Virus record (IMG/VR): IMGVR_UViG_644736339_000001 | Length of the DNA stretch: 64,000 bases | From: a virus | Taxonomy: Duplodnaviria; Caudoviricetes | Direction: 5' to 3' (one strand) | Shown: positions 3,391 to 60,026 of the stretch, piece by piece | How the letters are laid out: every line of letters starts with the position of its first letter | Position numbering within the stretch: position 1 is the first letter of the stretch | Notes under the pieces: generated by a model | Seen by the model: only the letters and a program-made list of their open reading frames with translations | Databases searched by the model: none | Told to the model about the DNA's origin: nothing | Position numbers and translations under genes: made by a program

Positions 3391-3418
3391 GAAGGCCTCC
3401 TGATAGCTCGACGAGCTG

Positions 3419-3504
3419 CGGAGAGGGCGGGAATTGAACCCGCCGCCGGTGTCACCCGGACGACTGCTTAGCAAGCAGCTGCCTTACCGCTCGGCCACCT
3501 CTCC
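3419..3504 (-). tRNA. tRNA-Ser(GCT)
   Basis: GGAGAGG/CCTCTCC acceptor, anticodon loop TTGCTAA, long variable arm, GGTTCAATTCC T arm, G73. Confidence 0.92.
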
Positions 3505-3508
3505 AAGG

Positions 3509-3592
3509 CGGAAGGTAAGCGATTCGAACGCTTCACGGTGTTACCCGCCACGGTTTTCGGGACCGCTTGACACACCACATGTCGGACCTTCC
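3509..3592 (-). tRNA. atypical tRNA-Ser(CGA)
   Basis: GGAAGGT/ACCTTCC acceptor, GCGGT-CCCGAAA-ACCGT anticodon arm (C33), long variable arm, AAGCG-TTCGAAT-CGCTT; non-canonical position 8 and D arm. Confidence 0.75.
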
Positions 3593-3693
3593 AGGGGCGA
3601 GGAGAGCCTGATCAGTGCACCGCTCCGTGAGGGTGCGCTTCCTCGCCTTGTCCGGCGCCCTGACGGGAGCTACCCGACGGTTTCACCGGTCCG

Positions 3694-3769
3694 TGGCTCG
3701 GGTCGGATTTGAACCGACGATCTTAGGCTTATGGGGCCCACGGGGACGGCCGAACTCCCCTACCGAGCA
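3694..3769 (-). tRNA. tRNA-Met(CAT), initiator-like (1-72 mismatch)
   Basis: TGCTCGG/CCGAGCC acceptor with T1-C72 mismatch, TGGGC-CCCATAA-GCCTA (C33), GTCGG-TTCAAAT-CCGAC, A73. Confidence 0.82.
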
Positions 3770-5358: not shown

Positions 5359-5754
5359 TCAGTACCGCCAGGTCCGCCCTTTGATTTCGTTGGCGATCGC
5401 GACCAGCGTCTCGACCTGAGCTAGACGGTCGGTGCTCGGTGCGACGCCAGCAGGGATGGTCAGCAGCGCCGTCGTCGACATACGGCCGGCCATGGCGGCG
5501 ATTCGCGGCGACTGGGACGGCACCACCACCTCGTTGTAGGCAAACGTCCACCCGTCGGTGCCGATCAAGTCCAGGGCGTTGCGGGCGGAATCGACGTCGC
5601 TGTTTCGGAGCCAGTCGGCAGCGAGGCCGAATAGTTCACCTGCTTTAGCAATGTCCTGCACCTGCGCGGGCGCGTTCTGCACAGCGCGCATGCGGCGCCG
5701 GACAACGGCCGCTCCAGCGCCGGCCACGATCAGCACGGCAGCCCAATCGGTCAT
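5359..5754 (-). CDS. hypothetical membrane-anchored protein
   Basis: ATG 5754 overlapping the traB stop; N-terminal TM segment. Confidence 0.6.
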   Translation of the reverse strand: MTDWAAVLIVAGAGAAVVRRRMRAVQNAPAQVQDIAKAGELFGLAADWLRNSDVDSARNALDLIGTDGWTFAYNEVVVPSQSPRIAAMAGRMSTTALLTIPAGVAPSTDRLAQVETLVAIANEIKGRTWRY

Positions 5755-7796
5755 CGGCCGGCCCCTACGAGGCGGGCGTGCTGCGGCAGAACCCACACGC
5801 CGCGGTCGCTCTTGACCAGCTTGTTCTGCTCGACCGCGCGGGAGCATGTCTGGGAGACGGCGGCGAGCCTCTTGTCAACGTCCTCGCCGATGCCCTTGCA
5901 GATCTGGGTAGTGCTGGCCTCTTCGCCGAGTTCGGACAGGAACAGCTCGATCTTGTCCCACATGGTGCCCGTCGTTGCGGCAGTGGTTTGCGCGAGGGTC
6001 TCGGACCACGGCTTCTCCGGGTTCGACGCCTCGTCTTTCGCCTCCTCGGCGGTGACGAACGCGCTGCCGTCGGCCATGGCCACCATCAGCAGCTGCCCGG
6101 TCTCGGTAGTGACTGTAACGCCGTCGCAGTACCAGGCCTCGTCATACGGCGTGGGGGGCGCCTGGTCTTCGTCGTCTTCCCAGTCCCACTGGGTGTCGTC
6201 GAGCCCTCCAACGGCGGCACGCATCATGACGGAGTGGTCGGAGTCGGTGCCGAGGTGGTAGGCGACGCCGGCTGCGGATGATCCGTCAGCCCACAGCAGC
6301 GGCAGCGCGCCGGGGTCGCCGATTTGCTTGCCGTTGGCGACAATCATGCCGGTGAACTGGTTGCCGGTGCGGTGCACGGTCGCGGTGGTGAGGAGTCCGT
6401 CGCGGATGGACATGTCGCCGCCGAGCTTGTCGGCGGTGGGGTACTGAGTGAGGACGGTCAGTCCGATCAGGACTTTGCGGCCTTCGGCGACGAGCTGCGC
6501 AATGAGCGCTGCAGCATGCGGGAATCGGGCGATGAACGCCGGGAACTCGTCGATGATGATCCGGATGTGTGGCATCTCAGGGGTGGGGCGCAGCACCTCC
6601 CGGTTCAACGAGGCAAGGATCCTCAGCCGCCGATTTTTCTCGGTGACCGCGGCGGCGAGCGCAACCATGATCTCTTCATCGGAGCGGGCGAGGACGTCAA
6701 CACGGTCGCGCCACCCGGAGTAGGACGCACCCTGGTGCGGGTCGAGCAGCCAGGTGGCGGTGCAGGCCTCGTTACGCTTGTTGTAGGTGTGCCGGGCCAT
6801 GGCCAGCCGGAGCCGCGCGGTGCGGGACTTGCCGGAGCCGGTGGAGCCGACGATGAGTTCGTGAACGGCGCCCCAGCCGGGAAGGATCAGCGGGTGGTGG
6901 GTCCATTTGCCTGTGGGGGTCATGCCGGCGGGGTGCCGGTAGGTGCCGGGGTCTCCGGGTCCGCGCCACGGCACCGGGTCGGTGAGGGGGTTGCGGTTGA
7001 ACATCATCAGCCGCGCCTTGTTCTCGCTGATGGGCTCGACGGCGAGGCGCGACGGGTGGATGTCGAGCCCGGTTGAGATTTTCCCGAGCTGGGGCGTGAT
7101 GTCGGCGACGGTGTGGCGGATCGGGCCGCCGTCGGCGTTGAGGGTGATGATGCCGGTGGTGCCGTTGCCTTGGCCGTTGGCGTCCAGGAGCGGTTCGAGT
7201 TTGGTGAGGCTTGAGTTCTGCATGGGCCCGGCGGCACACCCGATGCGCTTGGCCCAGATCTTGCCGGGGCTCGGCGCCTCCTCCTCCGGCGCTTCCGCTT
7301 CCTGCGCGACCGACTGCTCTCGCTCTTCGGGTGCTGCCGCAGCGAGTCCGCGCAACCACCAGCACACGGTGGCGACGCCTGTGGCCGCTCCGTAGGTGGC
7401 CAGTGCGGTCGGGGTGTACGGCTTGGCGATGGTGGCGTGCAGTTCGAAGCCGGTGAGGTACATGCCGCAGGCGGTGATGTACGCAACCTGCTTGCCGTTG
7501 AGGGCATCGTCGTTGCGGCGTCGCAGCTCGGCATATCCGCCGGCGGCGCCGACCGCAGTGACCACGCCGCCGGCTTCGATCCATCCGGCGACTTCGGGTG
7601 TGGCTGCGTGCAGCATCCCGGCGGAGGCGATACCGACCGCGGAGACGGACAGCGGCATCAGCCGGAGCTTGTGCCGCCACCAGGTGCGGCCGGCCCATAT
7701 AGCAGCCTTGCCGCTGGCGGTGTCGCGGATCTGTGCCGGTGGGCGCGTCGGCGACCGGACCGCCACGTCCTTGGTGGGCGTCTGTGTGGTCTTCAT
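5751..7796 (-). CDS. traB: FtsK/SpoIIIE-family conjugative DNA translocase (Streptomyces TraB-type)
   Basis: Start refined to ATG 7796; N-terminal TM helices, Walker A GSTGSGKS, LLDP, Walker B IIIDE, EGRK...TQYP, C-terminal winged helix. Confidence 0.88.
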   Translation of the reverse strand: MKTTQTPTKDVAVRSPTRPPAQIRDTASGKAAIWAGRTWWRHKLRLMPLSVSAVGIASAGMLHAATPEVAGWIEAGGVVTAVGAAGGYAELRRRNDDALNGKQVAYITACGMYLTGFELHATIAKPYTPTALATYGAATGVATVCWWLRGLAAAAPEEREQSVAQEAEAPEEEAPSPGKIWAKRIGCAAGPMQNSSLTKLEPLLDANGQGNGTTGIITLNADGGPIRHTVADITPQLGKISTGLDIHPSRLAVEPISENKARLMMFNRNPLTDPVPWRGPGDPGTYRHPAGMTPTGKWTHHPLILPGWGAVHELIVGSTGSGKSRTARLRLAMARHTYNKRNEACTATWLLDPHQGASYSGWRDRVDVLARSDEEIMVALAAAVTEKNRRLRILASLNREVLRPTPEMPHIRIIIDEFPAFIARFPHAAALIAQLVAEGRKVLIGLTVLTQYPTADKLGGDMSIRDGLLTTATVHRTGNQFTGMIVANGKQIGDPGALPLLWADGSSAAGVAYHLGTDSDHSVMMRAAVGGLDDTQWDWEDDEDQAPPTPYDEAWYCDGVTVTTETGQLLMVAMADGSAFVTAEEAKDEASNPEKPWSETLAQTTAATTGTMWDKIELFLSELGEEASTTQICKGIGEDVDKRLAAVSQTCSRAVEQNKLVKSDRGVWVLPQHARLVGAGR

Positions 7797-9073
7797 CAGT
7801 TGATCGCCAGTACGGTCTGGTGGGCGGCGGCGTTGCCGGTCATGGCCTGCGCTTCGGAGTGCGGGCCTTGGTGCCGCTGCACGGTGTCGTGCATGTTCTT
7901 CACGGCCTCGGCGTGGAGAATCGCGGCCTGCGCCGACGCCTGGTTGCATTCGGCAGCGATCTGTTCGGCGGCTGCGAGGGACGCAGCGATTTCGGCAACG
8001 ACAGCCTCGGCGTCGGCGCGCCGCTGTTCGGTTTGGGCCAGCCCGACGGCAGTGGTGATGCCCACGCCGATGGAGGTCATGGACGCGTTGTCCACGCGCA
8101 GGACGCTGAATCGTGCCGCGGTTTCCTCGAGTTGCGCCGCGTGTTGGCGGGCCTTGTTCGCGGTTGCGACGGCGGTTTCGTGGCGTGCGACCGCGGTACT
8201 GCTGCGGACGAGGGCGTTGGCGGCGCGTTCGATGGCGCTGTTGGCTCGAACCGTGGACTGCTCGACGGCGCTGACGGCGTAGGCGAACGCGTTCTTGGCC
8301 CACCGGAACAGGTCGTGGATGGTGAGGATTTCAGCTGCCATGGCGTGTCCGTTCGGTGCAGTGATGATGGCGGTCGGGTGAGCAGGGAGTTCCGGCTGGT
8401 TGACGATGTCGGCGTATTCGGAACTGGCGAACTGGCTCGGCGTCGTCACCGGCGCCTGGATGTCGTCGGTGAGTTCGGCGTCGATGACCGCGTCATCGGG
8501 CCGCGCGCTGGAGTGCGGCGGCACGTTCGGTTGCTGCGCGCCACGGCGGCGCAAACTGAAGCCGGTGGTGCCGCCGGATGGGGTTCCCGGGCGAGACCAG
8601 CGACGCCCTGCCGTGGACGCAGACCCGTTCTTCGGAGTGCGGGACTGGCGCTGCGTCTTGTTCTGGGTGCCGCGTGCGGTTCGCTTCTTCGCGGTCCAGG
8701 TGGCGCCGGACACGAAGCCCAACCCGAAAATGGCGGCGCCGGCGAGGGACGCGGCGGTGGCATCGCCGAACAGGTCGGCCAGCTTCCCGCCGAGCCGCCG
8801 CCCGGGGAGGTGTGCGCGCGTCTTCGTCTTCCATCGGCGGTACAGGGACCGCTGCCACTGCCCGAACGTGATGTCGCCGGGGCCGAGCGACGGGCTGGAT
8901 CCGGACGAGGGGGCGCCCTTCCCTGTATTGCGTGCCCCGGCGGTCTTCGGTCCGGCGCCGGCTGTTGCGCCGCCGCCGGCCGTCGCAGGGGTGGATGCCC
9001 GTGCGGCTTTGACGGTGGCGACAACGCCGGAGCCCGCCCACCAGGCGATGGCGATGAGGATGATCGGAATCAT
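7796..9073 (-). CDS. TraA-like/plasmid transfer accessory protein
   Basis: TM segments plus Ala-rich coiled coil ending HQGPHSEAQ; directly upstream of traB. Confidence 0.6.
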   Translation of the reverse strand: MIPIILIAIAWWAGSGVVATVKAARASTPATAGGGATAGAGPKTAGARNTGKGAPSSGSSPSLGPGDITFGQWQRSLYRRWKTKTRAHLPGRRLGGKLADLFGDATAASLAGAAIFGLGFVSGATWTAKKRTARGTQNKTQRQSRTPKNGSASTAGRRWSRPGTPSGGTTGFSLRRRGAQQPNVPPHSSARPDDAVIDAELTDDIQAPVTTPSQFASSEYADIVNQPELPAHPTAIITAPNGHAMAAEILTIHDLFRWAKNAFAYAVSAVEQSTVRANSAIERAANALVRSSTAVARHETAVATANKARQHAAQLEETAARFSVLRVDNASMTSIGVGITTAVGLAQTEQRRADAEAVVAEIAASLAAAEQIAAECNQASAQAAILHAEAVKNMHDTVQRHQGPHSEAQAMTGNAAAHQTVLAIN

Positions 9074-9826: not shown

Positions 9827-10930
9827 TCAGCTGGCCTGCTCTACGGTTTCGACGGCCCGGAGCCGGGGCGCAAGCTCGGGAAATCGACGCTCGACGATCT
9901 CCCTGATCTGCTTGGCTCGGGAGTCGGTGTTAAGCCCTTCGACAGCCGCGACAAGCTCCGGCGCGGTGGGGCGGGGGTTCGCGCGCTTGCCGGTGTTGTC
10001 GGCGAGGATTTGGCGGTAGGCGCCGAGAGTGGCGACAACGAGGGCTTCGACTTTGTCGGTGGCGGAGTTGTCGTTGGCGTCCGCAGCGCTGGCGACAGGC
10101 TTGGCGTTGGCGACAGCCGTGTTGTCGTTTTGGCGGTTGTCGGTCGGCGTCTGGTTGTCGTTGGCGGTTGTCGTTGCCGTTTTGGCGGCCGTCGCGCTGT
10201 CGACTGTCGTTGTCGTCGCGGCCGGATTAGCGGTTGGCGTTGTCGACCGGGTGTTGGCGGCAGCGTTGTCGGCGCCTGCCCGGTTGGCGACTGCCGCCGG
10301 CGCCTCATCCGTGGCGACCTTCTCGGCGAGCATTTCGGCTGCCTTGCGCGCCAGGGTGTCGGCGCCGAGTCCGACAAGAGCCTGCACGGGGATCGCAAGG
10401 ATCTCGTTGCGGATCGCGGCGCGGGTGCCCTTGCGGTCCACCGTCCACCGCAGCATCAACAGTCCGGTGCGGACCTTGAAGACGACCTTGCCGTGGCGCC
10501 GCTCGTAGGCCTCGCGGGCTTCCTTCAAGACCTTCCCGAAAGCCAGGACGGCGGCGATCGGCAGCAGCGCGGAGACGAGCTTGCCCTGCGGGTCGTTGAT
10601 GTGAATCCAGTTAATCCACGACGACAGCGTGGTGAAGCCGTCCACGTAAAGCAGCGATCCGAGGCTGGCTCGGCCGTAGATGGCGGCGCGGAAGCTCAGC
10701 AGCGACAGGGCCAGTGCGGCGCCGTCGAAGGTGGACGGCACCAGCCATGCCGCGCGCTCACTCAAGTCCATGTGCTGCTGGGCGAAGGCATGCAGTGCGA
10801 TGAACGACGCGGCCCAGCCGGCGACGGCCACGGCCACGACGAGGATCATGGCGAGTGAGGCAAGTCCGTTATCCCTCAGCGCGTCGCGCCACCGCGGCTT
10901 GGCATCCGGCGTCTCAGTGTTCTCGGTCAT
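9827..10930 (-). CDS. DUF2637/SpdB-like membrane spread protein
   Basis: WAASFIALHAFA...AWLVPSTFDG...SSWINWIH...LLPI pattern; low-complexity T/A/N/D linker. Confidence 0.75.
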   Translation of the reverse strand: MTENTETPDAKPRWRDALRDNGLASLAMILVVAVAVAGWAASFIALHAFAQQHMDLSERAAWLVPSTFDGAALALSLLSFRAAIYGRASLGSLLYVDGFTTLSSWINWIHINDPQGKLVSALLPIAAVLAFGKVLKEAREAYERRHGKVVFKVRTGLLMLRWTVDRKGTRAAIRNEILAIPVQALVGLGADTLARKAAEMLAEKVATDEAPAAVANRAGADNAAANTRSTTPTANPAATTTTVDSATAAKTATTTANDNQTPTDNRQNDNTAVANAKPVASAADANDNSATDKVEALVVATLGAYRQILADNTGKRANPRPTAPELVAAVEGLNTDSRAKQIREIVERRFPELAPRLRAVETVEQAS

Positions 10931-40715: not shown

Positions 40716-41864
40716 TCAATTGAGGACCGCGACGACGTTGTCCGGCGTCCGGCACCACAACGTGTGCGTCTCGTCGCGACCGACCGACAGCCCATACTCG
40801 TTGATCCCCGGCCGGTCCGCGGCTTCCCACCGCGCCCACGCGTCCTCGGCGAGGCTCCACACATCCTGCGGCCCGTGCTGCTCGACCGTGGCGTCCTTCC
40901 ACGGCGCTCCTTGCGGGACGTAGGCAACCGCCCAACTCCCGTCGGGTAGCGACAGCCACATGCAGTCGTCGCCGTCCTCCACAAGCGGCCCCGTGACATT
41001 CAGGCCGGGAACTGCGATCCGCGAAGGCCATGCCTCCTTCGCGGCTACGACCGCCGGTAGGTTCCAATCCGTTACTGAGCAGCGCTTCTCATCCTCGGCT
41101 TGCTTCGCCGGCGCGGGCGGCCGGCTGGTGCGCGAGGCCATAAAATCCACCGGGAACCGCACCCTGCCCTCGGCTGTGCCGTCCTCGCCGACCCGCAGCT
41201 GCACATACAGGTCCAGGTCCGGCTGGCCGATCTTCAGTGGCGCACACACCAGCCCGCCCGGCCTTGTCTGCGCGATCCACGCGGCTGGGATCCGGCGCAC
41301 CGAGTGTGTTGCGGACACGCGGTCAAACGGCGCCAGCGCGGGACGCCCGGATTCCCCGTCGCCGACGAAGGCGACCAGCGCCAAGCCGTCCCACACCCCC
41401 GAACTGTGCCAGTTCTCCACAGCGATACCGGCAAGCTCGGGATCGTACTCAACCGTCACCACTAGGCCTGCGGGCCCGACGCGGGCGGCCATCAGTGCCG
41501 CGGTCCAGCCGGTTCCGGTGCCGGACTCGAACACCCGCATCCCGTCGTCAAGATCGAGGGTGCCTAGCATGGCGGCGACCAGCATCGGCGCCGACAGCGA
41601 GCAGGTGGGCATGTTGTCGTCGCCGACCTGCGTGATGAACGGCTGGGTCACGGCGTGGACCGCCTCGTCCCAGTCCTGCTCGTTGTCTGCCCGATGCCGG
41701 GCGTCCCAGCCGTAGCCGTTCCATTCGAACCAGTCGTCGGGTGCGAAAGCAGACCGCGGGACGGCATCGAACACCTTGCGCCAAGCCGGGTCGGCAAGGG
41801 TGTCGTCTTCCCAGTAGGCCTCGGCGGCGATCCGTCCCGCGAAGTCGGTGTGCGTCTCGGGCAC
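40716..41864 (-). CDS. protein-L-isoaspartate O-methyltransferase homologue (RiPP-type, C-terminally extended)
   Basis: GTG 41864; VPRSAF, CSLSAP, VFESGTGTGWTAALM, VEYD, GDG..G...APFDRV, IPAAWIAQTRPGG. Confidence 0.9.
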   Translation of the reverse strand: MPETHTDFAGRIAAEAYWEDDTLADPAWRKVFDAVPRSAFAPDDWFEWNGYGWDARHRADNEQDWDEAVHAVTQPFITQVGDDNMPTCSLSAPMLVAAMLGTLDLDDGMRVFESGTGTGWTAALMAARVGPAGLVVTVEYDPELAGIAVENWHSSGVWDGLALVAFVGDGESGRPALAPFDRVSATHSVRRIPAAWIAQTRPGGLVCAPLKIGQPDLDLYVQLRVGEDGTAEGRVRFPVDFMASRTSRPPAPAKQAEDEKRCSVTDWNLPAVVAAKEAWPSRIAVPGLNVTGPLVEDGDDCMWLSLPDGSWAVAYVPQGAPWKDATVEQHGPQDVWSLAEDAWARWEAADRPGINEYGLSVGRDETHTLWCRTPDNVVAVLN

Positions 41865-41986
41865 TAGCGCGGCTTCTTGTGCGTGCCGTTGCCGGGCTGC
41901 GTGACTGTGGTGGGGACGCCGTCGCCGGATGGCGCGGGGGCTGCGGGCGGGTTGTCCTTCGGCGGCTTCGGTGCGTGCTCGCCCAT
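41864..41986 (-). CDS. 40-aa RiPP precursor candidate (imiditide/type I pamtide-like)
   Basis: GGAGG RBS; MGEHAPKPPKDNPPAAPAPSGDGVPTTVTQPGNGTHKKPR*; stop overlaps the PIMT start (TAGTG). Confidence 0.82.
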   Translation of the reverse strand: MGEHAPKPPKDNPPAAPAPSGDGVPTTVTQPGNGTHKKPR

Positions 41987-42036
41987 GGAATCCTCCAAGG
42001 CTGGGTGGCGTGTCCTTGGTGGACGTTAGTGCGGTA

Positions 42037-42258
42037 TCAAGGTTCGGGGAAGAGCGACACGCAGGAGTTGGCAGGAACGTGCGGCGCCGGACCGAGCTCG
42101 GGGAAGCGGCGCTGCATCTCGCTCCAGGCCATGTCGAGGCCTTGGTCAAGTCCGTCGCGAACGCCGCAGAGATAGGCGCTGGCAGGCTGGTAGTCGCCGG
42201 AGCGCAGAACGTGAAGCGCGGCGCGTAGGCGACCGCCAAGGCCGAGTTGAAGAGGCAT
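42037..42258 (-). CDS. hypothetical protein
   Basis: Small ORF upstream of the precursor. Confidence 0.4.
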   Translation of the reverse strand: MPLQLGLGGRLRAALHVLRSGDYQPASAYLCGVRDGLDQGLDMAWSEMQRRFPELGPAPHVPANSCVSLFPEP

Positions 42259-46449: not shown

Positions 46450-46486
46450 GCCTATAGTCCATTCATAGGTGGACATAGGAGGCGTC

Positions 46487-47311
46487 ATGCCGTCAGCCGT
46501 GTGGTCCGGGACGATCTCGTTCGGCTTGGTCAGCGTGCCCGTGCAGCTGTACTCCGTTACCGACAGCGCCGGACCCGAACTGCACCAGTACCACGCCGAG
46601 GACGGCGGCCGGATCCGGTACAAGCGGGTGTGCGAAGTCGACGGCCAAGAGCTGCAGCAGGACGACATTGCCCGCGGCTACCCCGTCGGCGACGACGAAG
46701 TGATCATCACCGACCGGGACCTCGACGGCTTGCCCGAGGTCGCGAAGAAGATCGTCGCCATCGATGCGATCGTCCGCGAAGACCAGATCGACCCGATCCA
46801 GTACCGGAAGGCCTATTACGTTGCGCCGGAGAAGGCGGGACTCCGCCCCTACGTACTGCTGCGCAATGCGCTTGCGAAGGCTGGACGCGCCGCGGTTGTT
46901 ACCTTTGCGATGCGCGAGCGCGAGTCCCTAGCGCTGGTGCGGGCCCGCGACGACCTGCTGCTGCTCGAGACGCTGTTCTGGCCCGATGAAGTGCGTGAGA
47001 TCCCCGTGGAGGCTCCGCCGGCCATCGACGACAAGACCGAGCTGAAAGCGGCCGTGGACCTGATCGAAGCCATGACCTCTGACTTCAAGCCCGAGCAGTA
47101 CCACAACCTGTACCGCGAGGCGCTCCAAGAGGTCATCGAGGCCAAGGAAGCCGGGCGCGAGGTGACGCGCGTTGAGCAGCCGAAGGAAGACGCGGGTGCG
47201 AAGGTCACGGACCTGCTGTCGGCACTGCGGGCATCGGTGGAGCGGGCGAAGGAGACGCGCGGCGAGGGCGAGAAGCCGGCTGCGAAGAAGAGGGCGAAGA
47301 AGGCGGCCTGA
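46487..47311 (+). CDS. ku: Ku (NHEJ DNA end-binding protein)
   Basis: WSGTISFGLVSVPVQLY...GGRIRYKRVC...IARGY...KAYYVAP...LFWPDEVR...DLLSALRASV; AGGAGG RBS. Confidence 0.96.
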   Translation: MPSAVWSGTISFGLVSVPVQLYSVTDSAGPELHQYHAEDGGRIRYKRVCEVDGQELQQDDIARGYPVGDDEVIITDRDLDGLPEVAKKIVAIDAIVREDQIDPIQYRKAYYVAPEKAGLRPYVLLRNALAKAGRAAVVTFAMRERESLALVRARDDLLLLETLFWPDEVREIPVEAPPAIDDKTELKAAVDLIEAMTSDFKPEQYHNLYREALQEVIEAKEAGREVTRVEQPKEDAGAKVTDLLSALRASVERAKETRGEGEKPAAKKRAKKAA

Positions 47312-49244: not shown

Positions 49245-49498
49245 AGTCACCACCGTATTGAGGCCGTCAGTCCTGCGGTTCGAAACCATGGCGGCCGGCC
49301 GTGTCCGGCGTCGCGGGCTTCCAAGGCTCCCGCAAGACTGGCCAGTTCTGCGGTTTGACGCCTCCACCTCGACCGGGCAGGCCGACCGCCTCGCAATCCA
49401 CGTCCGGGCGGATCGACTTAGCCTTGCGGCTCCTGGTCTGGACGTGGTGCTCTAGCGTACCGAAAAGCCCTGCCAGCCTGGGTGCCGTCGAAACAGCA

Positions 49499-49535
49499 GC
49501 GCGCCCCGGAGGCGGTATCCATCCTCCGAGGCGCT
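49499..49535 (-). terminator. hairpin closing the structured RNA
   Basis: GCGCCTCGGAGG ... CCTCCGGGGCGC stem on the minus strand. Confidence 0.55.
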
Positions 49536-49906
49536 GTGTCTGTAATGACTTTGCAAGTCAGTGACGTCCGCCACTTGGCCACACCGATGGCGTTTAAGGA
49601 CGCGGCTCACTCTTGACGGCGCCGTGCTCTGCCTATTGAGCTACGCCAGCACGTAGAGCCGGCGATGGGGGTCGAACCCATAACCTCGACGTTCTCGTCC
49701 GCGTCCGCTTGATCCGGCGATCGACGGCGATGCTGAGCATGGAGCGAGAATCTGAACTTCAGTGGTCTCGATGCGCCTCTACCAGTTGGGCTACAGCGGC
49801 CCGTATGCCGCCGGAAGGACTCGAACCTCCACCATCACCGAGCAACCCGTCAGCTTCAGTCTCAACTTCAGCTTGTGCTCGCCGCCGATCCTACCGTGCG
49901 CCGGCC
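49500..49906 (-). ncRNA. structured RNA with two circularly permuted tRNA-like domains (49767-49842 and 49620-49691)
   Basis: Each domain reads T arm, acceptor 3' strand, 6-7 nt loop, acceptor 5' strand, D arm; enclosed by long stems GATCGGCGGCGA/TCGCCGTCGATC and GGACGCGG/CCGCGTCC. Confidence 0.85.
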
Positions 49907-49910
49907 AGCG

Positions 49911-50642
49911 TCACGCGAACAGGTACCCGAACACGTCCTCGCCAACGCGCCGGTCCGTCACCTCGTGGTTGTTGGCCTCCTCGCGGGCGAACTTCACCGC
50001 GTGCGCCAGCTTCTCCACCCGCGCAGCCAGTGCATTAACGCGCTCGGCCGGCAGCGCACCGGAGAACTTCGTCGTGGTCCAGGTGCCGACGGTCACGTCC
50101 TCGTAGTAGACCTCGACCTGCGCCGGGTGCTTCTCAGTGGCCTCGGCCTTCACATGGTTGCGCGGCACCTTCTTGGTGCGGTTGGTCCGCACCGGCTCCG
50201 TCTTCCACGAGTCGGTCGACGGGTCGTGAACCCAGGACTCGGCGGCATCCAGCACCGGCAACTTCTTCACGAACGTGTGCAGGTCCGTCAGCTGCTTCTC
50301 CAGGAACAGCAGGTACGACACCGGCACGCCGGCGATGAGAACCTGGCCGTCGACCATGACGTCGGCGCGGGCTTCGCAGTTCGCCCAGTCCTTCGTCGCG
50401 GTCACGTCGAACAGCCGCGTCATGTTCGCCGATGTGAAGCGCAGGATCTCCTCGGCGCCGATCTGCACGCGCGTCGACTCCGGCGGAAGCTGCTCGCCTT
50501 CCTCGTCCTTTGGCTGGTACGTCCGGGAGATGCCGGACAGCAGCGCCTGCTTCTGGACGTTGTGGTGCGCCTCGGTGATGTCCGCGTAGGAGCGGGACTT
50601 GACCGACTTCTCAACGGCGATGATCTGGTTGAGCTTGGCCAC
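49911..50642 (-). CDS. hypothetical 243-aa largely helical protein, upstream partner of the tRNA-mimic RNA
   Basis: AAGGGA RBS, strong codon bias; MAKLNQIIAVEK...LLSGISRTYQP...KDWANCEARAD...YLLFLEKQL...KFSGALP...KFAREEAN. Confidence 0.9.
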   Translation of the reverse strand: MAKLNQIIAVEKSVKSRSYADITEAHHNVQKQALLSGISRTYQPKDEEGEQLPPESTRVQIGAEEILRFTSANMTRLFDVTATKDWANCEARADVMVDGQVLIAGVPVSYLLFLEKQLTDLHTFVKKLPVLDAAESWVHDPSTDSWKTEPVRTNRTKKVPRNHVKAEATEKHPAQVEVYYEDVTVGTWTTTKFSGALPAERVNALAARVEKLAHAVKFAREEANNHEVTDRRVGEDVFGYLFA

Positions 50643-52777: not shown

Positions 52778-54153
52778 TTGACGTCCTCCCCGCCCTTAGA
52801 GCAGGGATTCCTGCCGCGCCGGTCACGCGAGTGTCCGGTCGCCTAGGTGGGTTCCTGCTTCATCGGGGCCTGCCACAGCAAGCTGCGGTCTTACGTCCCC
52901 TCCACAGGCATTTTCAGTCTCGGCGCGTCCCGCCGCGACCTGCCTTCCAAGAGTAAGGATGTTGCGTGCCGCGTTGACGTCCCGGTCATGGTGCACGCCG
53001 CAGGCGCCGCACGTCCAGCCTCGCACCTTCAGTGGCTTCGGTCCGTCCTTTACGCCGCACGCTGAGCAGACCTGTGACGTCGGCGCCCACCGGTCCATTT
53101 TCGCGAACGTCCGTCCGTACCGCGCGGACTTGTACTCCAGCATCCGCACGAAGTTGGACCAGCCGGCGTCGTGCACCGACTTTGCCATGCCGTTCATACG
53201 CGACCGTGCCATGCTGCTTGCCGCGAGGTCTTCCACGTACACCGCTTGGTTCTCGCGGATGATCGTGGTCGACAGCTTGTGGTGGAAGTCCTTGCGAGCA
53301 TCGGCAACGTGGGCGTGAGCCTTCGCGACCTTCACTCGCGCCTTGGCTCGATTGTTCGAGCCCTTCTGTTTCCGCGCGAGTGACTGTTGGAGCTTCTTGA
53401 GCCGCTGTTCGGCCTTGCGCAGGAACCTCGGTGCGTCGATCTTCTCGCCGTTGTCCCGGACGACAAAGTGTGTGAGACCCAGATCTATGCCGGTCTCCGC
53501 GTAGGCGTCGCCGGCCGGGAACCGTTCGGCATCCGCCGCCGGGTCGGTCTGGACGACGAACGAAGCGAAGTACCGGCCCGACGCGTCCTTGATGACGGTC
53601 ACCGACGACGGGTCGGACGGCAGGTCCCGCGACCAGCGGACCGCGACCTCGCCGATCTTCGGCAAAGACAGCCGACCCGACTTCATGATCTTGAACTTGG
53701 AGTTCGCAGTGAACCGGATCGCCTGCCTGTTGTCGCGCCGGGAGCGGAACCGGGGCTTGCCAGCACGCACGCCCTTACGCCGCCCCGTGGCGGAGTCGAA
53801 GAAGTTCTTGTACGCAACATCGTTGTCCCGCAAAGCCTGTTGAAGCACGACAACGGAAACACTCCCGAGCCATGCAGTCTCGGAGCTCTTCTTCGCCTCG
53901 GTAATCAACCGTTTTGACAGGACCTCACTAGCGATCCAGCCGCCACCCTCCTCGTAGGAAGACTTCCTTATGGCCAGCGCTTGGTTATACACCCACCGTG
54001 CACACCCAAACGCCTTCGTCAGCGCATCGCGCTGACCGGGCGTCGGGTCAAGGCGGAAGTTATACCGGAGCTGCACCTTGACATTCTACCAATTAATGCG
54101 CTAGCTCCGCCGTGAACGACAGGGCTAGCGCGCTACAATTCTCGGTCGAGCGC
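52778..54153 (-). mobile_element. IS200/IS605-family element with tnpB only
   Basis: Left flank TTGAC (54154-54158), subterminal hairpins, right end CAGGAATCCC...GGGGAGGACGTCAA ending at 52778; interrupts a small host ORF. Confidence 0.8.
52823..54076 (-). CDS. tnpB: RNA-guided endonuclease TnpB
   Basis: YNFRLDPT, FGCARWVYN, GIDLG, VEDL, TSQVCSACG...CGACG..HDRDVNAARNI. Confidence 0.97.
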   Translation of the reverse strand: MQLRYNFRLDPTPGQRDALTKAFGCARWVYNQALAIRKSSYEEGGGWIASEVLSKRLITEAKKSSETAWLGSVSVVVLQQALRDNDVAYKNFFDSATGRRKGVRAGKPRFRSRRDNRQAIRFTANSKFKIMKSGRLSLPKIGEVAVRWSRDLPSDPSSVTVIKDASGRYFASFVVQTDPAADAERFPAGDAYAETGIDLGLTHFVVRDNGEKIDAPRFLRKAEQRLKKLQQSLARKQKGSNNRAKARVKVAKAHAHVADARKDFHHKLSTTIIRENQAVYVEDLAASSMARSRMNGMAKSVHDAGWSNFVRMLEYKSARYGRTFAKMDRWAPTSQVCSACGVKDGPKPLKVRGWTCGACGVHHDRDVNAARNILTLGRQVAAGRAETENACGGDVRPQLAVAGPDEAGTHLGDRTLA

Positions 54154-57509: not shown

Positions 57510-57692
57510 TCACGATCCGCTCAATCCGTCGCGTAGTTGTGCCCGACGGAACCGGGCGTGCTCTTCGGACGCCAACCCAACCCGCAGCGCCTCCAACGTC
57601 TCCTGGGAAAGCGGAGCGTTGACCTTGTCGGCGTAACGCTGGCCGACGTCGTCGTCGTGAGCGTCCTCAGTCCCGCCTTCAGAAATTGCCAT
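57510..57692 (-). CDS. hypothetical protein
   Basis: Small ORF after pnk. Confidence 0.45.
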   Translation of the reverse strand: MAISEGGTEDAHDDDVGQRYADKVNAPLSQETLEALRVGLASEEHARFRRAQLRDGLSGS

Positions 57693-58587
57693 ATGCCACC
57701 TGCCAGCACTTCAGCCCCAGGCGCCTCCATAGCGCGACCACCCGCGCCCGATCGTCCAGAACGAACCGCACGTTGTACAGGCCGCGCACGTGCGCATCGA
57801 ACAACTCCGCCTTGACGATGTCGTCGCTGCGCCGGTCTCCCTCGGCCCGCATCCACAGCTCGTCATACGGCACCTGATGCGCAGCCAGCCATCGCTCGGT
57901 GTGCTTCCGGAACTCCGACTGGCGTCCCGACAACAGCACGATGTAGCCGTCGGCACGGTCGCACAACGCCAGGACCCGAGCGACTTCCTCGTTCAGGAGG
58001 TCGGTCTCGCACAGGTCCAAGTCGTAGGCGCCGCGGCCGGCATGAATGGCCAACGTCCCGTCGATGTCACACAGGACCGCAGGCGGCAGCGACAGATCGG
58101 GAACGTAGGGTTCGGGCACCGGCGTGTCGTTCAGCCGTTCCGGATGCTTCCACCAGCCGTCGCGCGTCGACTTCAGCCGCTCGGCCATGCTCCGGATCAC
58201 GTCCTCGCCAACTGGACGCTCCCGCACCTTGTCCCGGCCGATGCACTCCTCAACGTCGACGCCGGTGAAGTCGTACACGGCGAAGTCCGCGCGCCCGGCC
58301 ACAACCCGCTTCAGTCGGTTCGGGATCCGCGAGACCAAGTGCGTGTTGTCGACCACAACGTCGAAGCCGCCGTCGATCGCTGCGAGGACCGCGGCGTCCT
58401 GGACCGCGAGCACCGTCTCCTCGTGGTCCCTGCCGAGCCGGATGCGGCCGTCGTTCGCGTCGAGCATCAACCGCAGGTCGTCGAGATTCACGCGGCGCAT
58501 CCGGCCGGCAGACTCGGCGACAAGCTGACGGGCGAGGCTGGTCTTGCCGCTCGCCGGCAGCCCGCAGGTGAGGTGGATTGTGGGCAC
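57679..58587 (-). CDS. pnk: T4-type polynucleotide 5'-kinase/3'-phosphatase
   Basis: GLPASGKTS, VNLDDLR, VVVDNT; HAD DIDGT, LSGR, MR..GD.R.D.IVK, LDDR. Confidence 0.95.
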   Translation of the reverse strand: MPTIHLTCGLPASGKTSLARQLVAESAGRMRRVNLDDLRLMLDANDGRIRLGRDHEETVLAVQDAAVLAAIDGGFDVVVDNTHLVSRIPNRLKRVVAGRADFAVYDFTGVDVEECIGRDKVRERPVGEDVIRSMAERLKSTRDGWWKHPERLNDTPVPEPYVPDLSLPPAVLCDIDGTLAIHAGRGAYDLDLCETDLLNEEVARVLALCDRADGYIVLLSGRQSEFRKHTERWLAAHQVPYDELWMRAEGDRRSDDIVKAELFDAHVRGLYNVRFVLDDRARVVALWRRLGLKCWQVAYGNF

Positions 58588-58588
58588 G

Positions 58589-59719
58589 TCAGCCTTCCTC
58601 GTCGGTCACGAACGGCACGTCACCGCGCGGCTTGATGCTCTTCCACGCCAGATCGTCGATGTCGCGGCCGTCGTACAGCCGGAACAGTGCAGCGCGGTGC
58701 TCGGACTTCATGGCCTGCTCGGCGAACGACTTCCTTTCTGCGGTCGGGCCAATCGCGTCGAAGTCCGCGCGGGCCGCAGCAACGTAGGCGTCGAACTCAC
58801 CGCGCAGGCGGGCCGCGACCTGACGGACCCAGCCCGCGAACTCATCGGGCACAGTGTCGAACAGGACTGCGGGATCCTGGCCGGACGCCAGAACCTCCCA
58901 CACGGTGCGTTCGTTCGTGCCGGTGTACAGCTTGTGAAGGGCCAGGTAGGACGACAGTTTGATCTTTGCGCGGATGCCGGACGTGAAGCGGATGACGTAG
59001 CCCTCGTCCTCGGTGCCGCCGGCGGTCCGCCCGTCGATACGACGGCTGTCCGCAGCCAGCACCTCCACCTCCCGAACATCTTTGCCCAAGCCCCAGGACC
59101 GCACCACCGGACCGATCGGCGCCCAGTGCGCCGCCACCTTGGCCAGCGCCTTCTCGGCGCCCGTGGCCGGCTCGTATGCGGCCAGCAGCACAAGGTCTTC
59201 ACGCGCGCCGTAGTCGACGACGATCCGGTTCGCGGGGTAGATCGCCTCCGCGAGGTACGTCAGCGCGGGGTCCAGCAGCGACGTGTCCGCCGCGTCGAGA
59301 CGGGCCTGCGCCCACGCCGACTGCTCGGAGGCGAAGCTGCCCTTGGACGCGGCGTGCCACCGGCCGTCGTAGTGGAAGGCGATAATTAGTGAGCCGTCCA
59401 CTTTCTCGAAGATCTCGAACGGTTCGGTCGGGAGCGGCGGCGCAAAGTCGTGAACGCCATGCATCCCCGTCACGAAGATCTTCGGGAACGGCAGCGCTAC
59501 TATTCGGCCCGTAGTGTCATCAACGATCAGTCCGCGACAGCACATCGTCACCGGGGTCCAGTGGTGCTCGTACTGGCAAGACTGGCCGTAGACGTACAGC
59601 GATAACGGCAGCGTCGGATGCTGCTTCCGCGTCACGAACTTCGCCTCGATCTCAGCCTGCAGATCCGCCGGCGAGAACAGGTCGTGCAGGTGCAGCGGGG
59701 AAGTGGTGGTGGTCGTCAT
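58589..59719 (-). CDS. T4 Rnl1-like RNA ligase
   Basis: CRGLI, PFPK, motif I EKVDGS, SKGSF, EAIYP.NRIVVDY, EGYV, KIK..YL.LH. Confidence 0.93.
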   Translation of the reverse strand: MTTTTTSPLHLHDLFSPADLQAEIEAKFVTRKQHPTLPLSLYVYGQSCQYEHHWTPVTMCCRGLIVDDTTGRIVALPFPKIFVTGMHGVHDFAPPLPTEPFEIFEKVDGSLIIAFHYDGRWHAASKGSFASEQSAWAQARLDAADTSLLDPALTYLAEAIYPANRIVVDYGAREDLVLLAAYEPATGAEKALAKVAAHWAPIGPVVRSWGLGKDVREVEVLAADSRRIDGRTAGGTEDEGYVIRFTSGIRAKIKLSSYLALHKLYTGTNERTVWEVLASGQDPAVLFDTVPDEFAGWVRQVAARLRGEFDAYVAAARADFDAIGPTAERKSFAEQAMKSEHRAALFRLYDGRDIDDLAWKSIKPRGDVPFVTDEEG

Positions 59720-59795
59720 CGAGGGCTCCGATTCGCTCGGTTGATACACGGTCGCCGGGAACAGCGATAGAGGCAAATCGGATACCGGCGTGAGG

Positions 59796-60026
59796 TCAGC
59801 GGTGCTCGCGCTCGGCAACTCGCTCGGCCTCGAACGCCGCCTCCGCACACCGAGTTGCCTTCTCCAGCGCAGCCACCGCCGCGGAGGTCAACGCGACGGC
59901 CTGCCGCAGGCTCGGGTCCTGCTGGTGGGCGTTGTTGTTCGCTGCGTGCAGCAACTTGAACACGGCCTGGGTCTCGGCGTGGAGGGTGGTGAGCTTGGCG
60001 GGGATGTCCATGGCAACCATTCTCAC
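59796..60026 (-). CDS. hypothetical protein
   Basis: Coupled ORF. Confidence 0.5.
   Translation of the reverse strand: MRMVAMDIPAKLTTLHAETQAVFKLLHAANNNAHQQDPSLRQAVALTSAAVAALEKATRCAEAAFEAERVAEREHR

What the first reader, a model, noticed from the sequence alone, without database searches (positions are those of the whole stretch)
49500..50642. Protein plus double circularly permuted tRNA-mimic RNA: candidate undescribed ribonucleoprotein system
Seen: a ~400-nt ORF-free region starts right after the stop of the 243-aa gene (49911..50642, minus strand) and folds into two tRNA-like domains with permuted strand order. Domain 1 (49842-49767) is CTCGGTG-ATGGT-GGAGG TTCGAGT CCTTC-CGGCGGC-ATACGG-GCCGCTG-TA-GCCC AACTGGTA GAGGC-G-CATCGAG. 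Domain 2 (49691-49620) is CGTCG-AGGTT-ATGGG TTCGACC CCCAT-CGCCGGC-TCTACGT-GCTGGCG-TA-GCTC AATAGGCA GAGC-A-CGGCG. Both keep a canonical T loop, the D-loop GG and U8-A9. The acceptor stem is capped by a loop (no CCA end) and there is no anticodon loop; the anticodon stem instead joins a scaffold helix (12-bp GATCGGCGGCGA/TCGCCGTCGATC and 8-bp GGACGCGG/CCGCGTCC). Further hairpins and a terminator-like stem follow. Established: this capped-acceptor topology is that of bacterial YrlA Y RNAs, which partner Ro60/TROVE. No TROVE gene is in this window and the adjacent protein is not Ro60-like. Inference: the protein and RNA form a dedicated RNP that displays two tRNA elbows, for example as a decoy for tRNA-targeting toxins or defences, or as a scaffold for RNA-processing enzymes. 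The same element encodes Pnk/Rnl1 and variant tRNAs.
Basis: partly seen in the sequence, partly recalled or inferred. Interest (0 to 1): 0.92.

Follow-up and report, generated by a model that had tools for sequence, protein, structure and literature searches.

The report
Twin tRNA-mimic RNA beside DUF7873
A conserved gene of unknown function (DUF7873) is followed by a folded RNA of about 400 bases carrying two back-to-front tRNA look-alikes; the gene and RNA travel together in most Streptomyces-type bacteria and many unrelated phages, without the Ro60 protein that such RNAs normally serve, so they are probably an undescribed RNA-protein unit.

Summary
Right after the 243-aa gene (49911-50642, minus strand; Pfam DUF7873, 393 bits) lies one structured RNA (about 49894-49490) with two permuted tRNA-like heads, in the order T arm, 7-bp loop-capped acceptor stem, D arm.

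- **Structure.** Two covariance models built here show compensatory changes at every modelled pair of module 2 and its two enclosing helices (94% paired against 58% shuffled). The tRNA 15-48 tertiary pair also covaries.
- **Relation to YrlA.** Rfam YrlA matches only below threshold (37 and 20 bits; cut-off 69). The Ro60-binding motif is missing, and no full-length Ro60/TROVE gene was found in this genome, in 5 Streptomyces genomes or in 5 phages.
- **Gene-RNA linkage.** This is close to absolute. In 121 genomes of the order, 70 of 72 with the gene have the full RNA next to it, and 0 of 49 without the gene have it. The RNA is also present in about 73 of 80 viral contigs and in all 20 distant phage loci tested.
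- **The protein.** It has a confident predicted fold with no known match.

Binding, transcription and processing are untested. The scan has noted this same pair before on other DNA. I found no paper describing it. My reading is a Ro60-independent, Y-RNA-like ribonucleoprotein tied to tRNA biology.

The parts
49911..50642 (-). DUF7873 protein gene (243 aa, GTG start, TGA stop at 49913-49911)
   Evidence: Pfam PF25283, 392.7 bits, residues 1-242 of 244. AlphaFold2 mean pLDDT 95.8. No fold match in PDB or BFVD.
49716..49894 (-). 5' half of the RNA: scaffold helix P1, GAGC element, hexamer track, tRNA-like module 1, conserved central strand
   Evidence: CM R2 full-length match, 165.9 bits.
49879..49890 (-). 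P1 5' strand (GAUCGGCGGCGA), pairs with 49719-49730
   Evidence: Seen in the sequence. 70% of cells paired across relatives, with compensatory changes at all 10 modelled pairs. Moderately supported.
49849..49874 (-). 5' hexamer track: four phased repeats (AAGCUG AAGUUG AGACUG AAGCUG) with a conserved U-N-A every 6 nt
   Evidence: U-N-A spacings of 6, 12 and 18 nt are enriched 14-, 10- and 6.5-fold over shuffles in 66 distinct relatives. Consensus. The middle letters do not covary with the 3' tract, so a plain helix is not supported.
49767..49842 (-). tRNA-like module 1: anticodon-stem strand, variable loop, T arm, 7-bp acceptor stem capped by AUACGG, U8-A9, D arm, anticodon-stem strand
   Evidence: T, acceptor and D helices are 99.6-100% paired with compensatory changes. 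U8 is present in 87/87, G19 in 84/84, and the 15-48 pair is A-U in 76 and G-C in 5. The D arm is almost invariant.
49731..49766 (-). 3' tract and conserved central strand (…UUCAGAUUCUCGCUCCAUGCUCAGCA); GCUC at 49742-49745 may pair with GAGC at 49877-49880
   Evidence: UaU.gcuc is conserved across 66 distinct relatives. GAGC:GCUC is mostly invariant with a few compensatory cases. The long-range pairing is possible but not proven.
49578..49730 (-). 3' half of the RNA core: P1 3' strand, helix Py, AUCRA loop, helix Px, tRNA-like module 2, UCAnnnUGA linker, UUAAACG loop
   Evidence: CM R1 full-length match, 139.4 bits. 93.9% paired against 57.5% shuffled, and all 35 pairs have changes on both sides.
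49714..49719 (-). Helix Py 5' strand (CGCCGG), pairs with 49582-49587 (UCGGUG)
   Evidence: Helix 1: 96% paired, 6 of 6 pairs compensatory.
49699..49706 (-). Helix Px 5' strand (GGACGCGG), pairs with 49598-49605 (CCGCGUCC)
   Evidence: Helix 2: 90.6% paired, 8 of 8 pairs compensatory.
49620..49691 (-). tRNA-like module 2: T arm, 7-bp acceptor stem capped by UCUACGU, D arm, 5-bp anticodon-type stem
   Evidence: Rfam YrlA 37 bits, below the cut-off of 69. Helices 3-6. U8 136/136 and A14 136/136; the 15-48 pair is A-U in 101 and G-C in 26.
49591..49597 (-). UUAAACG, the 3' side of a conserved internal loop facing AUCAAGC (49707-49713; consensus aUCgA)
   Evidence: UUAAA is at least 90% conserved in 73 distinct full-length relatives. 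Candidate protein-binding site (inference).
49490..49581 (-). 3' tail: variable hairpins, then the terminal G+C-rich hairpin 49501-49534 with loop AUGGAUACCG and a short U-rich run
   Evidence: MFE fold. The hairpin and a YGGMUAYG-like loop recur in relatives. The strict terminator scan found none. The RNA ends have not been mapped.

Best explanation
The DUF7873 gene and the roughly 400-nt RNA beside it form one dedicated two-part unit: a Ro60-independent, Y-RNA-like ribonucleoprotein.

**Shown**
- The RNA is a single, strongly constrained structured non-coding RNA.
- Its scaffold carries two genuine L-shaped tRNA heads, each with acceptor, T and D arms. The anticodon arm is replaced by scaffold helices.
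- It is inherited together with the protein gene across Streptomycetales chromosomes, mobile elements and phages of several bacterial phyla.

**Inferred**
- DUF7873 binds the conserved non-tRNA parts. These are the AUCRA/UUAAACG internal loop, the GAGC/UCGCUC core and the phased U-N-A hexamer track. It may bind as an oligomer with one subunit per hexamer.
- The two heads are offered to enzymes that recognise tRNA shape: RNase P, CCA-adding enzyme, T- and D-loop modifying enzymes, and exonucleases. In this role the RNA would be a tether or platform, as Y RNA is for Ro60 and PNPase.
- The 7-bp acceptor stems, G+1, the frequent U-1 and the N-CCA that starts about 40% of cap loops predict that RNase P can open the caps, as published for M. 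smegmatis YrlA. That would give a multi-piece RNA with tRNA-like ends.
- The likely field of action is tRNA or structured-RNA processing and quality control. Phages carry the unit inside their tRNA gene islands.
For: **Gene-RNA linkage**
- In 121 genomes of the order, the gene is in 72. The full-length R1 RNA is adjacent in 70 of these. One more copy is cut at a contig end, and one gene remnant has no RNA. None of the 49 genomes without the gene has the RNA.
- The partial R1 hits elsewhere are tandem tRNA-Asn junctions.
- About 73 of 80 IMG/VR loci have abutting full-length R2 and R1 matches.
- The RNA is present in all 10 named phage records examined, which infect Arthrobacter, Gordonia, Klebsiella, Ralstonia, Vibrio, Rhizobium, Pseudanabaena and Microcoleus.
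- It is present in 10 of 10 further viral loci of the divergent Vibrio- and Rhizobium-phage clades; those two query proteins are about 30% identical to the window's.

**The linkage does not depend on gene order**
- In L161 the RNA lies upstream of the gene.
- In a Microcoleus phage an IscB/HEARO element sits between the gene and the RNA, and both are kept.

**Structure**
- Covariation supports the folds, as does tRNA tertiary covariation.
- N-CCA starts 48 of 127 and 34 of 82 cap loops, against about 1.6% expected.
- The non-tRNA core and the 6-nt U-N-A phasing are conserved.

**Other**
- No Ro60 is present.
- The protein is about 245 aa throughout, in 2381 clusters at 50% identity. Its invariant residues are mostly Trp, His, Asn, Gln and Gly (W137, H172, Q175, W188, N88, N224, G37, G186).
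- Published precedent: M. smegmatis YrlA, which has a 7-bp acceptor stem, is cut by RNase P and receives CCA in vivo (PMC4201824).
Against: - No direct evidence exists for transcription, RNA ends, processing or protein-RNA contact. The tools for reads and complexes were unavailable.
- The DUF7873 fold matches no known RNA-binding fold.
- Co-inheritance would also arise if the RNA were a substrate, a regulator or a cis element of the gene.
- Several Streptomyces copies have lost module 1, so two heads are not always needed.
- The window RNA has no encoded CCA in either cap.
- An earlier check in this scan (e1-2703945) priced the 'protein binds RNA' reading at only 22/100.
Confidence: 0.5

Rival explanations
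1. The RNA is a conflict module, in one of two forms. It could be a tRNA-shaped decoy or sponge that protects the tRNA pool of a phage or mobile element from host tRNA-targeting defences. Or it could be a type III-like toxin-antitoxin or abortive-infection pair in which the RNA keeps DUF7873 inactive.
For: - The pair occurs in phages, on a mobile island (the window copy; FtsK/TraB-like gene, DnaB, Ku, TnpB, Pnkp and Rnl1) and in bacteria.
- In phages it sits inside tRNA gene arrays. From my own knowledge, such arrays are known to offset tRNA-depleting defences.
- The gene-plus-RNA cassette has variable neighbours.
Against: - The heads lack anticodon loops, the usual target of anticodon nucleases.
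- There is no PADLOC match.
- The protein is about 80% identical across Streptomyces, Kitasatospora and allies, and is present in 46 of 88 Streptomyces-type genomes and 12 of 12 of the window's own genus. That looks more like a housekeeping gene than a patchy defence gene.
- The RNA is not a tandem repeat array upstream of the gene, as type III antitoxins are.
Confidence: 0.17
2. The RNA is a cis-acting 3' element of the DUF7873 transcript. Its tRNA-like structures would act as RNase P/RNase Z punctuation and as blocks to exonucleases, in the way of mascRNA, and the protein would have no physical tie to it.
For: - The RNA lies immediately downstream on the same strand in nearly all loci.
- It carries RNase P-type features (7-bp acceptor stem, G+1, U-1, N-CCA).
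- It sits in tRNA operons that are processed by the same enzymes.
Against: - About 200 nt of non-tRNA scaffold is conserved and covaries, far more than punctuation needs.
- The RNA lies upstream of the gene in L161.
- The RNA is kept although separated from the gene by an IscB insertion in L102.
- A promoter is annotated between gene and RNA in Klebsiella phage FBKp24.
- When the gene has decayed, the RNA is gone as well (G454).
Confidence: 0.1
3. The RNA is an ordinary YrlA Y RNA that serves a Ro60/Rsr protein encoded elsewhere, and its adjacency to DUF7873 is incidental.
For: Rfam YrlA is the best-matching family. The topology is the same as in Chen et al. 2014.
Against: - The scores of 37 and 19.7 bits are far below the cut-off of 69.
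- No GNCGAAN0-1G motif is present.
- TROVE gives only a 64-position vWA-type partial hit in a 684-aa ORF in this genome. There are none or similar partial hits in 5 Streptomyces genomes, and none in 5 phages.
- The strict coupling is to DUF7873.
Confidence: 0.03

Closest known systems
YrlA-type bacterial and phage Y RNAs with Ro60/Rsr (Rfam RF02553; Chen et al. 2014, PMC4201824), above all M. smegmatis YrlA
   Same: - A non-coding RNA is encoded next to its protein gene on the same strand.
- The tRNA-like domain is permuted (T arm, loop-closed acceptor stem, D arm), with scaffold helices in place of the anticodon arm.
- tRNA tertiary contacts are conserved.
- As in M. smegmatis YrlA, the acceptor stem has 7 bp, the feature that makes that RNA an RNase P and CCA-adding substrate.
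- It is found in bacteria and in phages.
   Different: - There are two heads on one RNA of about 400 nt instead of one head on about 110-150 nt.
- It lacks the GNCGAAN0-1G Ro60-binding motif and scores below Rfam's cut-off.
- The scaffold is different: the AUCRA/UUAAACG loop, the UCGCUC core and the phased hexamer track.
- The partner gene is DUF7873, which is not TROVE.
- No Ro60 is present in the genomes.
Two-piece (circularly permuted) tmRNA with SmpB
   Same: - The gene order is permuted: the T arm and 3' acceptor strand with CCA come first, and the 5' acceptor strand later.
- Processing opens the link.
- A dedicated small protein partner is often encoded nearby.
- It is carried by phages in tRNA islands. 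Phendrix has a tmRNA in the same array.
   Different: - There is no match to Rfam tmRNA or permuted tmRNA in the window.
- No tag reading frame was looked for or seen.
- Full D arms are present.
- There is no conserved G3-U70 and the discriminator base varies, so aminoacylation by one synthetase is unlikely.
- DUF7873 is not SmpB.
TRAP bound to phased (G/U)AG triplets (from my own knowledge)
   Same: Short conserved triplets recur at a fixed 5-6 nt phase on a single RNA. This is the signature of an oligomeric protein that reads one triplet per subunit.
   Different: This is an analogy only. The oligomeric state of DUF7873 is unknown, the triplet here is U-N-A, and the RNA is not a leader.
mascRNA/MALAT1-type tRNA-like processing signals, and the stable 'species 1 and 2' RNAs of the phage T4 tRNA cluster (from my own knowledge)
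   Same: These are tRNA-shaped elements or stable RNAs that are made with tRNAs and cut by RNase P.
   Different: They have no dedicated protein gene, no double permuted heads and no conserved scaffold. There is only a weak Rfam mascRNA hit (16 bits).

Membership tests
Rfam YrlA (RF02553) | Score at or above the curated gathering threshold (69 bits) | tested here: not met
   37.0 bits (49596-49711) and 19.7 bits (49743-49859). Relatives score 23-38 bits.
Rfam YrlA (RF02553) | Permuted tRNA-like domain: T arm, closed acceptor-type stem, D arm, with tRNA tertiary contacts | tested here: met
   Covariation in all helices. U8, A14, G18-G19 and T-loop conserved; the 15-48 pair covaries.
Rfam YrlA (RF02553) | GNCGAAN0-1G Ro60-binding motif near the 5' end (Chen et al. 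2014) | tested here: not met
   No CGAA anywhere in 49480-49912. The motif occurs in only 5 of 80 and 12 of 71 relatives.
Rfam YrlA (RF02553) | Encoded within about 4 kb of a Ro60/TROVE gene on the same strand | tested here: not met
   The only TROVE hit in the 10.47-Mb genome is a partial hit (profile positions 290-353 of 442) at 361 kb, in a 684-aa ORF. None in 5 phages, and none or the same kind of partial hit in 5 Streptomyces genomes.
Canonical tRNA (RF00005) | Cloverleaf with anticodon arm and free acceptor end | tested here: not met
   ARAGORN finds no tRNA at 49480-49912. Rfam tRNA scores 16-17 bits against a cut-off of 29.
tmRNA / permuted tmRNA | Match to the tmRNA models | tested here: not met
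   No tmRNA or tmRNA_permuted hit in the window at gathering score or at E up to 10. ARAGORN reports no tmRNA. A tag reading frame was not examined.
Pfam DUF7873 (PF25283) | Full-length match above the gathering score (27 bits) | tested here: met
   392.7 bits, residues 1-242 of 244.
Ro60/TROVE protein | TROVE domain in the adjacent protein | tested here: not met
   Pfam gives only DUF7873. No Ro60 chain is among the fold-search hits.
Type III toxin-antitoxin | Tandem direct repeats of antitoxin RNA upstream of an endoribonuclease toxin gene | tested here: not met
   The RNA lies downstream, and its two modules are diverged tRNA-like heads in one scaffold. No PADLOC match. Toxicity was not tested.

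The most novel reading that the evidence does not exclude
The RNA matures into a multi-piece, two-headed tRNA. RNase P and 3' trimming or CCA addition would open both acceptor caps and leave two free CCA ends on one scaffold. DUF7873, bound along the hexamer track, would then present the two heads together to the ribosome or to an aminoacyl-tRNA-using enzyme. The heads would mimic an adjacent pair of tRNAs, and DUF7873 would act as an SmpB-like adaptor. That would be a new class of translation- or tRNA-linked ribonucleoprotein shared by phages and Streptomycetales.
Probability: 0.08. Interest if true: 0.95.

Novelty: new variant of a known kind. Interest (0 to 1): 0.8.

Why it matters
Bacterial tRNA-mimic Y RNAs are known only as partners of Ro60.

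Here the same kind of mimic, doubled and set on a different conserved scaffold, is tied to an unrelated and unstudied protein family. That family has at least 2381 clusters at 50% identity. It is found in about half of Streptomyces species, in every genome searched of the window's own genus, and in phages of at least four bacterial phyla, often inside phage tRNA islands.

If the two form a particle, it would be:
- a widespread, unnamed RNA-protein machine in antibiotic-producing bacteria;
- a new piece of phage tRNA biology;
- a large new structured RNA class missing from Rfam 15;
- a function for DUF7873.

It is directly testable in Streptomyces genetics and with SEA-PHAGES actinophages.

Tried and rejected

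**Protein searches that gave nothing**
- Foldseek against PDB: best E 0.057.
- VIA-align wide: best Z 8.2, on helices only. 3kdq_A scored Z 8.0 at rmsd 8.4 Å.
- BFVD: one weak unnamed hit.
- None of these gives a function.
- A profile search against PDB sequences gave nothing.
- PHROGs, PADLOC and NCBIfam gave no family.
- Scanning 47 members against Pfam at E up to 5 showed no second family.
- ESM Atlas gave only unnamed clusters at 0.80.

**Ideas tested and dropped**
- RNA-repair link: Rnl1 in 1 of 10 and RtcB in 1 of 5 phage records, so the link is not general.
- Plain Watson-Crick helices between the two hexamer tracts (my P2 and P3): the U and A positions are invariant, but the middle positions pair in only about 50% of sequences. 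I rejected these as ordinary helices.
- GAGC:GCUC long-range pairing: mostly invariant, so it is unproven.
- E. coli-type promoter and terminator scan: none found.

**Other dead ends**
- megablast of the locus against phage records gave no match.
- The Klebsiella phage homologue found nothing in genome contigs.
- Literature: no paper holds 'DUF7873', and the other searches found no description.
Full report
**What is there**

On the minus strand, the gene 49911-50642 encodes a 243-aa protein. It matches Pfam DUF7873 end to end at 392.7 bits. No PHROGs, PADLOC or NCBIfam family matches.

- module 1 at 49842-49767;
- module 2 at 49691-49620;
- the 12-bp helix at 49890-49879 with 49730-49719;
- the 8-bp helix at 49706-49699 with 49605-49598;
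- a terminal G+C-rich hairpin at 49534-49501.

ARAGORN sees no tRNA there. At gathering thresholds Rfam finds nothing there. With relaxed thresholds the only meaningful family is YrlA, at 37.0 and 19.7 bits against a cut-off of 69.

**The genome**

The window lies in a single contig of 10,467,782 bp. The contig holds a second DUF7873 copy at 6.40 Mb, followed by the same kind of RNA with many compensatory changes. From memory, that size fits Catenulispora acidiphila. I did not verify this. The nearest relatives named include Actinocrinis and a Catenulisporales MAG.

**One RNA, not two**

In 82 loci of Streptomyces, Kitasatospora, Actinocrinis and allies, a conserved RNA follows the stop codon. 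I built two covariance models.

R1 (150 positions) covers the 3' strand of P1, helix Py, helix Px and module 2. R2 (178 positions) covers P1, the 5' tract, module 1 and the central strand. On the window they score 139.4 and 165.9 bits, and the two matches abut.

On the R1 alignment of 136 distinct sequences:
- 93.9% of cells pair, against 57.5% in shuffles and about 44% when partners are slid;
- all 35 pairs show changes on both sides;
- this includes the two helices that enclose module 2.

On the R2 alignment:
- the T, acceptor and D helices of module 1 are 99.6-100% paired, with compensatory changes;
- P1 and the anticodon-type stem are about 70% paired, so they are only moderately supported.

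Both alignments were fitted to the models, which favours the structure. The margins are nevertheless very large.

**The heads are true tRNA shapes**

- U8 and A14 are invariant or nearly so: 136/136 each in module 2, and 87/87 and 83/85 in module 1.
- G18-G19, A21 and the T-loop U54-U55-C56-R57-A58 are nearly invariant.
- The tertiary 15-48 pair covaries, with A-U in 101 and G-C in 26 of 131 module 2 sequences.
- The acceptor stem always has 7 bp. Position +1 is G in about 85% and position -1 is U in about 57%.
- The cap loop begins with N-CCA in 48 of 127 (module 2) and 34 of 82 (module 1) distinct sequences, against about 1.6% by chance.

Chen et al. showed that M. smegmatis YrlA, the one YrlA with a 7-bp acceptor stem, is cut by RNase P and receives CCA in vivo (PMC4201824). 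The same fate is therefore a reasonable prediction here. It is only a prediction, and the window's own caps (AUACGG and UCUACGU) encode no CCA.

**The scaffold is not YrlA-like**

The Ro60-binding motif GNCGAAN0-1G is absent from the window RNA and rare in relatives. The parts conserved across 66-73 distinct full-length relatives are:
- an internal loop aUCgA / cUUAAAcG between helices Py and Px;
- a linker U.A..cU.A after module 2;
- a GAGC element and a UaU.gcuc strand, which could pair at long range. This pairing is mostly invariant and so unproven;
- a run of hexamers before module 1 in which U-N-A recurs every 6 nt.

For the hexamer run, spacings of 6, 12 and 18 nt are enriched 14-, 10- and 6.5-fold over shuffles.

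The U and A of these hexamers line up with U and A in the 3' tract. The middle letters, however, are complementary in only about half of the sequences. I therefore do not accept these as plain helices. They look more like phased recognition sites.

**Gene and RNA go together**

*Order-level sample of 121 genomes*
- The gene is in 72 genomes.
- A full-length R1 match lies next to the gene in 70 of them. One more is cut at a contig end (G447), and one genome has only gene remnants and no RNA (G454).
- None of the 49 genomes without the gene has a full-length match.
- One of the 121 genomes (G429, which has both gene and RNA) is unpublished. Without it the counts are 69 of 71 and 0 of 49.
- The many partial R1 hits elsewhere are junctions of tandem tRNA-Asn genes, the artefact Chen et al. 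warned of.

*Viral contigs and phages*
- About 73 of 80 IMG/VR loci have abutting full-length R2 and R1 matches.
- Named phages of Arthrobacter, Gordonia, Klebsiella, Ralstonia, Vibrio, Rhizobium, Pseudanabaena and Microcoleus all have modules after the gene. Their proteins are 28-56% identical to the window's.
- So do 10 of 10 further viral loci found with the Vibrio and Rhizobium phage proteins.

*Two informative exceptions*
- In L161 the RNA lies upstream of the gene, inside a tRNA array.
- In a Microcoleus phage a HEARO/IscB element is inserted between the gene and the RNA, and both are retained.

These speak against a mere 3' UTR.

**Context**

- In Streptomyces chromosomes the neighbours differ from species to species: terpene synthase, permease, HutD, Hsp20, FUSC. 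The gene plus RNA is thus a self-contained cassette.
- In phages it sits in tRNA islands. 46 of the 80 viral loci have at least one tRNA gene within 1.2 kb. Mimi, Phendrix, K479 and TM39 show dense arrays.
- The window copy lies on a mobile-looking island with an FtsK/TraB-like gene, DUF2637, DnaB, Ku, TnpB, Pnkp and Rnl1.
- Its RNA and protein are closest to a 134-kb IMG/VR contig, at 85% protein identity.
- RNA ligases are not steady companions: Rnl1 in 1 of 10 and RtcB in 1 of 5 phage records.
- No full-length Ro60 exists in this genome, in 5 Streptomyces genomes or in 5 phages.

**The protein**

The family is large: more than 7000 clusters at 90% identity and 2381 at 50%. Its members are almost always 240-255 aa.

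Invariant residues in 47 diverse members are G37, N88, P107, W137, H172, Q175, G186, W188, A219 and N224. I see no obvious metal-binding triad.

AlphaFold2 gives a confident model with mean pLDDT 95.8. It has long helices and a beta sheet. No convincing match turned up in PDB or BFVD. An RNA-binding role is inferred from context only.

**Reading**

The best-supported account is a dedicated, Ro60-independent, Y-RNA-like unit. DUF7873 would hold the conserved scaffold, and the two tRNA heads would engage tRNA-recognising enzymes.

| Claim | Status |
|---|---|
| The RNA is a conserved structured RNA | Shown |
| The heads have tRNA geometry | Shown |
| Gene and RNA are strictly coupled | Shown |
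| Ro60 is absent | Shown |
| The protein binds the RNA | Inferred |
| RNase P and CCA enzymes process the caps | Inferred |
| The unit acts as a tether or in quality control | Inferred |

The rivals are a conflict decoy or toxin-antitoxin pair, a cis-acting processing element, and an ordinary YrlA. They are weighed in the Rival explanations section.

**Prior knowledge**

No paper in the library mentions DUF7873 or describes this RNA. The scan itself has noted the same pair many times on other DNA.

One of those notes reports a later check that kept the observation but priced the binding claim low. It names Burroughs and Aravind 2016 as the nearest idea in print. I could not read that paper.

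My own counts do not support that note's worry that the pairing fails as a rule, at least down to about 28% protein identity.

Noticed in passing
window 52823-54076 (-): TnpB/IS605 OrfB-type gene (HTH_OrfB, OrfB_IS605 and Cas12f1-like TNB domains), 2 kb upstream of the DUF7873 gene on the same strand. Its omega-RNA was not looked for.
   Followed up: no
window 57679-59848 (-): Adjacent Pnkp (kinase plus HAD phosphatase, 302 aa) and Rnl1-like RNA ligase (419 aa), a T4-style tRNA repair pair on the same island. Rnl1 was seen in only 1 of 10 other DUF7873-bearing phage records tested.
   Followed up: partly
window 3418-3769 (-): tRNA-Ser(GCT), tRNA-Ser(CGA) and tRNA-Met cluster. Rfam misses the Ser(CGA) gene at gathering score. 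It could mark the end of the mobile island, which carries an FtsK/TraB-like gene at 5751-8303 and DUF2637 at 9827-10930.
   Followed up: no
window 40716-42239 (-) and 46469-47311 (+): A 507-aa protein with a PCMT-type methyltransferase domain in its middle, and a Ku homologue. Both lie on the same island.
   Followed up: no
L102 3950-5461 (Microcoleus phage My-WqHQDG): A HEARO RNA (129 bits) followed by a 1278-nt gene, probably IscB, is inserted between the DUF7873 gene and its RNA (R2 5541-5709, R1 5694-5936).
   Followed up: partly
L161 806-1124 and 1201-1929 (IMG/VR contig): The order is reversed: the twin-head RNA lies upstream of the DUF7873 gene, inside an array of tRNA-Leu, Cys, Gln and His.
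   Followed up: partly
L101 4018-4097 (Klebsiella phage vB_KpM_FBKp24): The record annotates a 'tRNA-Sup-TTA' that reuses the T arm and 3' acceptor strand of module 2 of this RNA. This is probably a false suppressor tRNA call. A promoter is annotated between the gene and the RNA.
   Followed up: no
L183-L185 (Streptomyces-type genomes G306, G448, G039): Tandem identical tRNA-Asn(GTT) genes give 50-62 bit partial hits to the permuted-tRNA model. This is a systematic false positive for any YrlA-like search.
   Followed up: yes
L024, L027, L031, L056, L065, L067 (Streptomyces loci): Module 1 is deleted or decayed while the scaffold and module 2 remain. In other loci the cap loop of module 1 carries insertions of up to 83 nt.
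   Followed up: partly
window 49501-49534 (-) and relatives: The loop of the terminal hairpin keeps a YGGMUAYG-like motif across distant relatives (UGGAUACC, CGGCUACG, CGGAUAUG). This suggests a role beyond termination.
   Followed up: no
L098 2072-2600 (Gordonia phage Phendrix): A tmRNA gene (89 bits) lies in the same tRNA array as the DUF7873-RNA pair.
   Followed up: no
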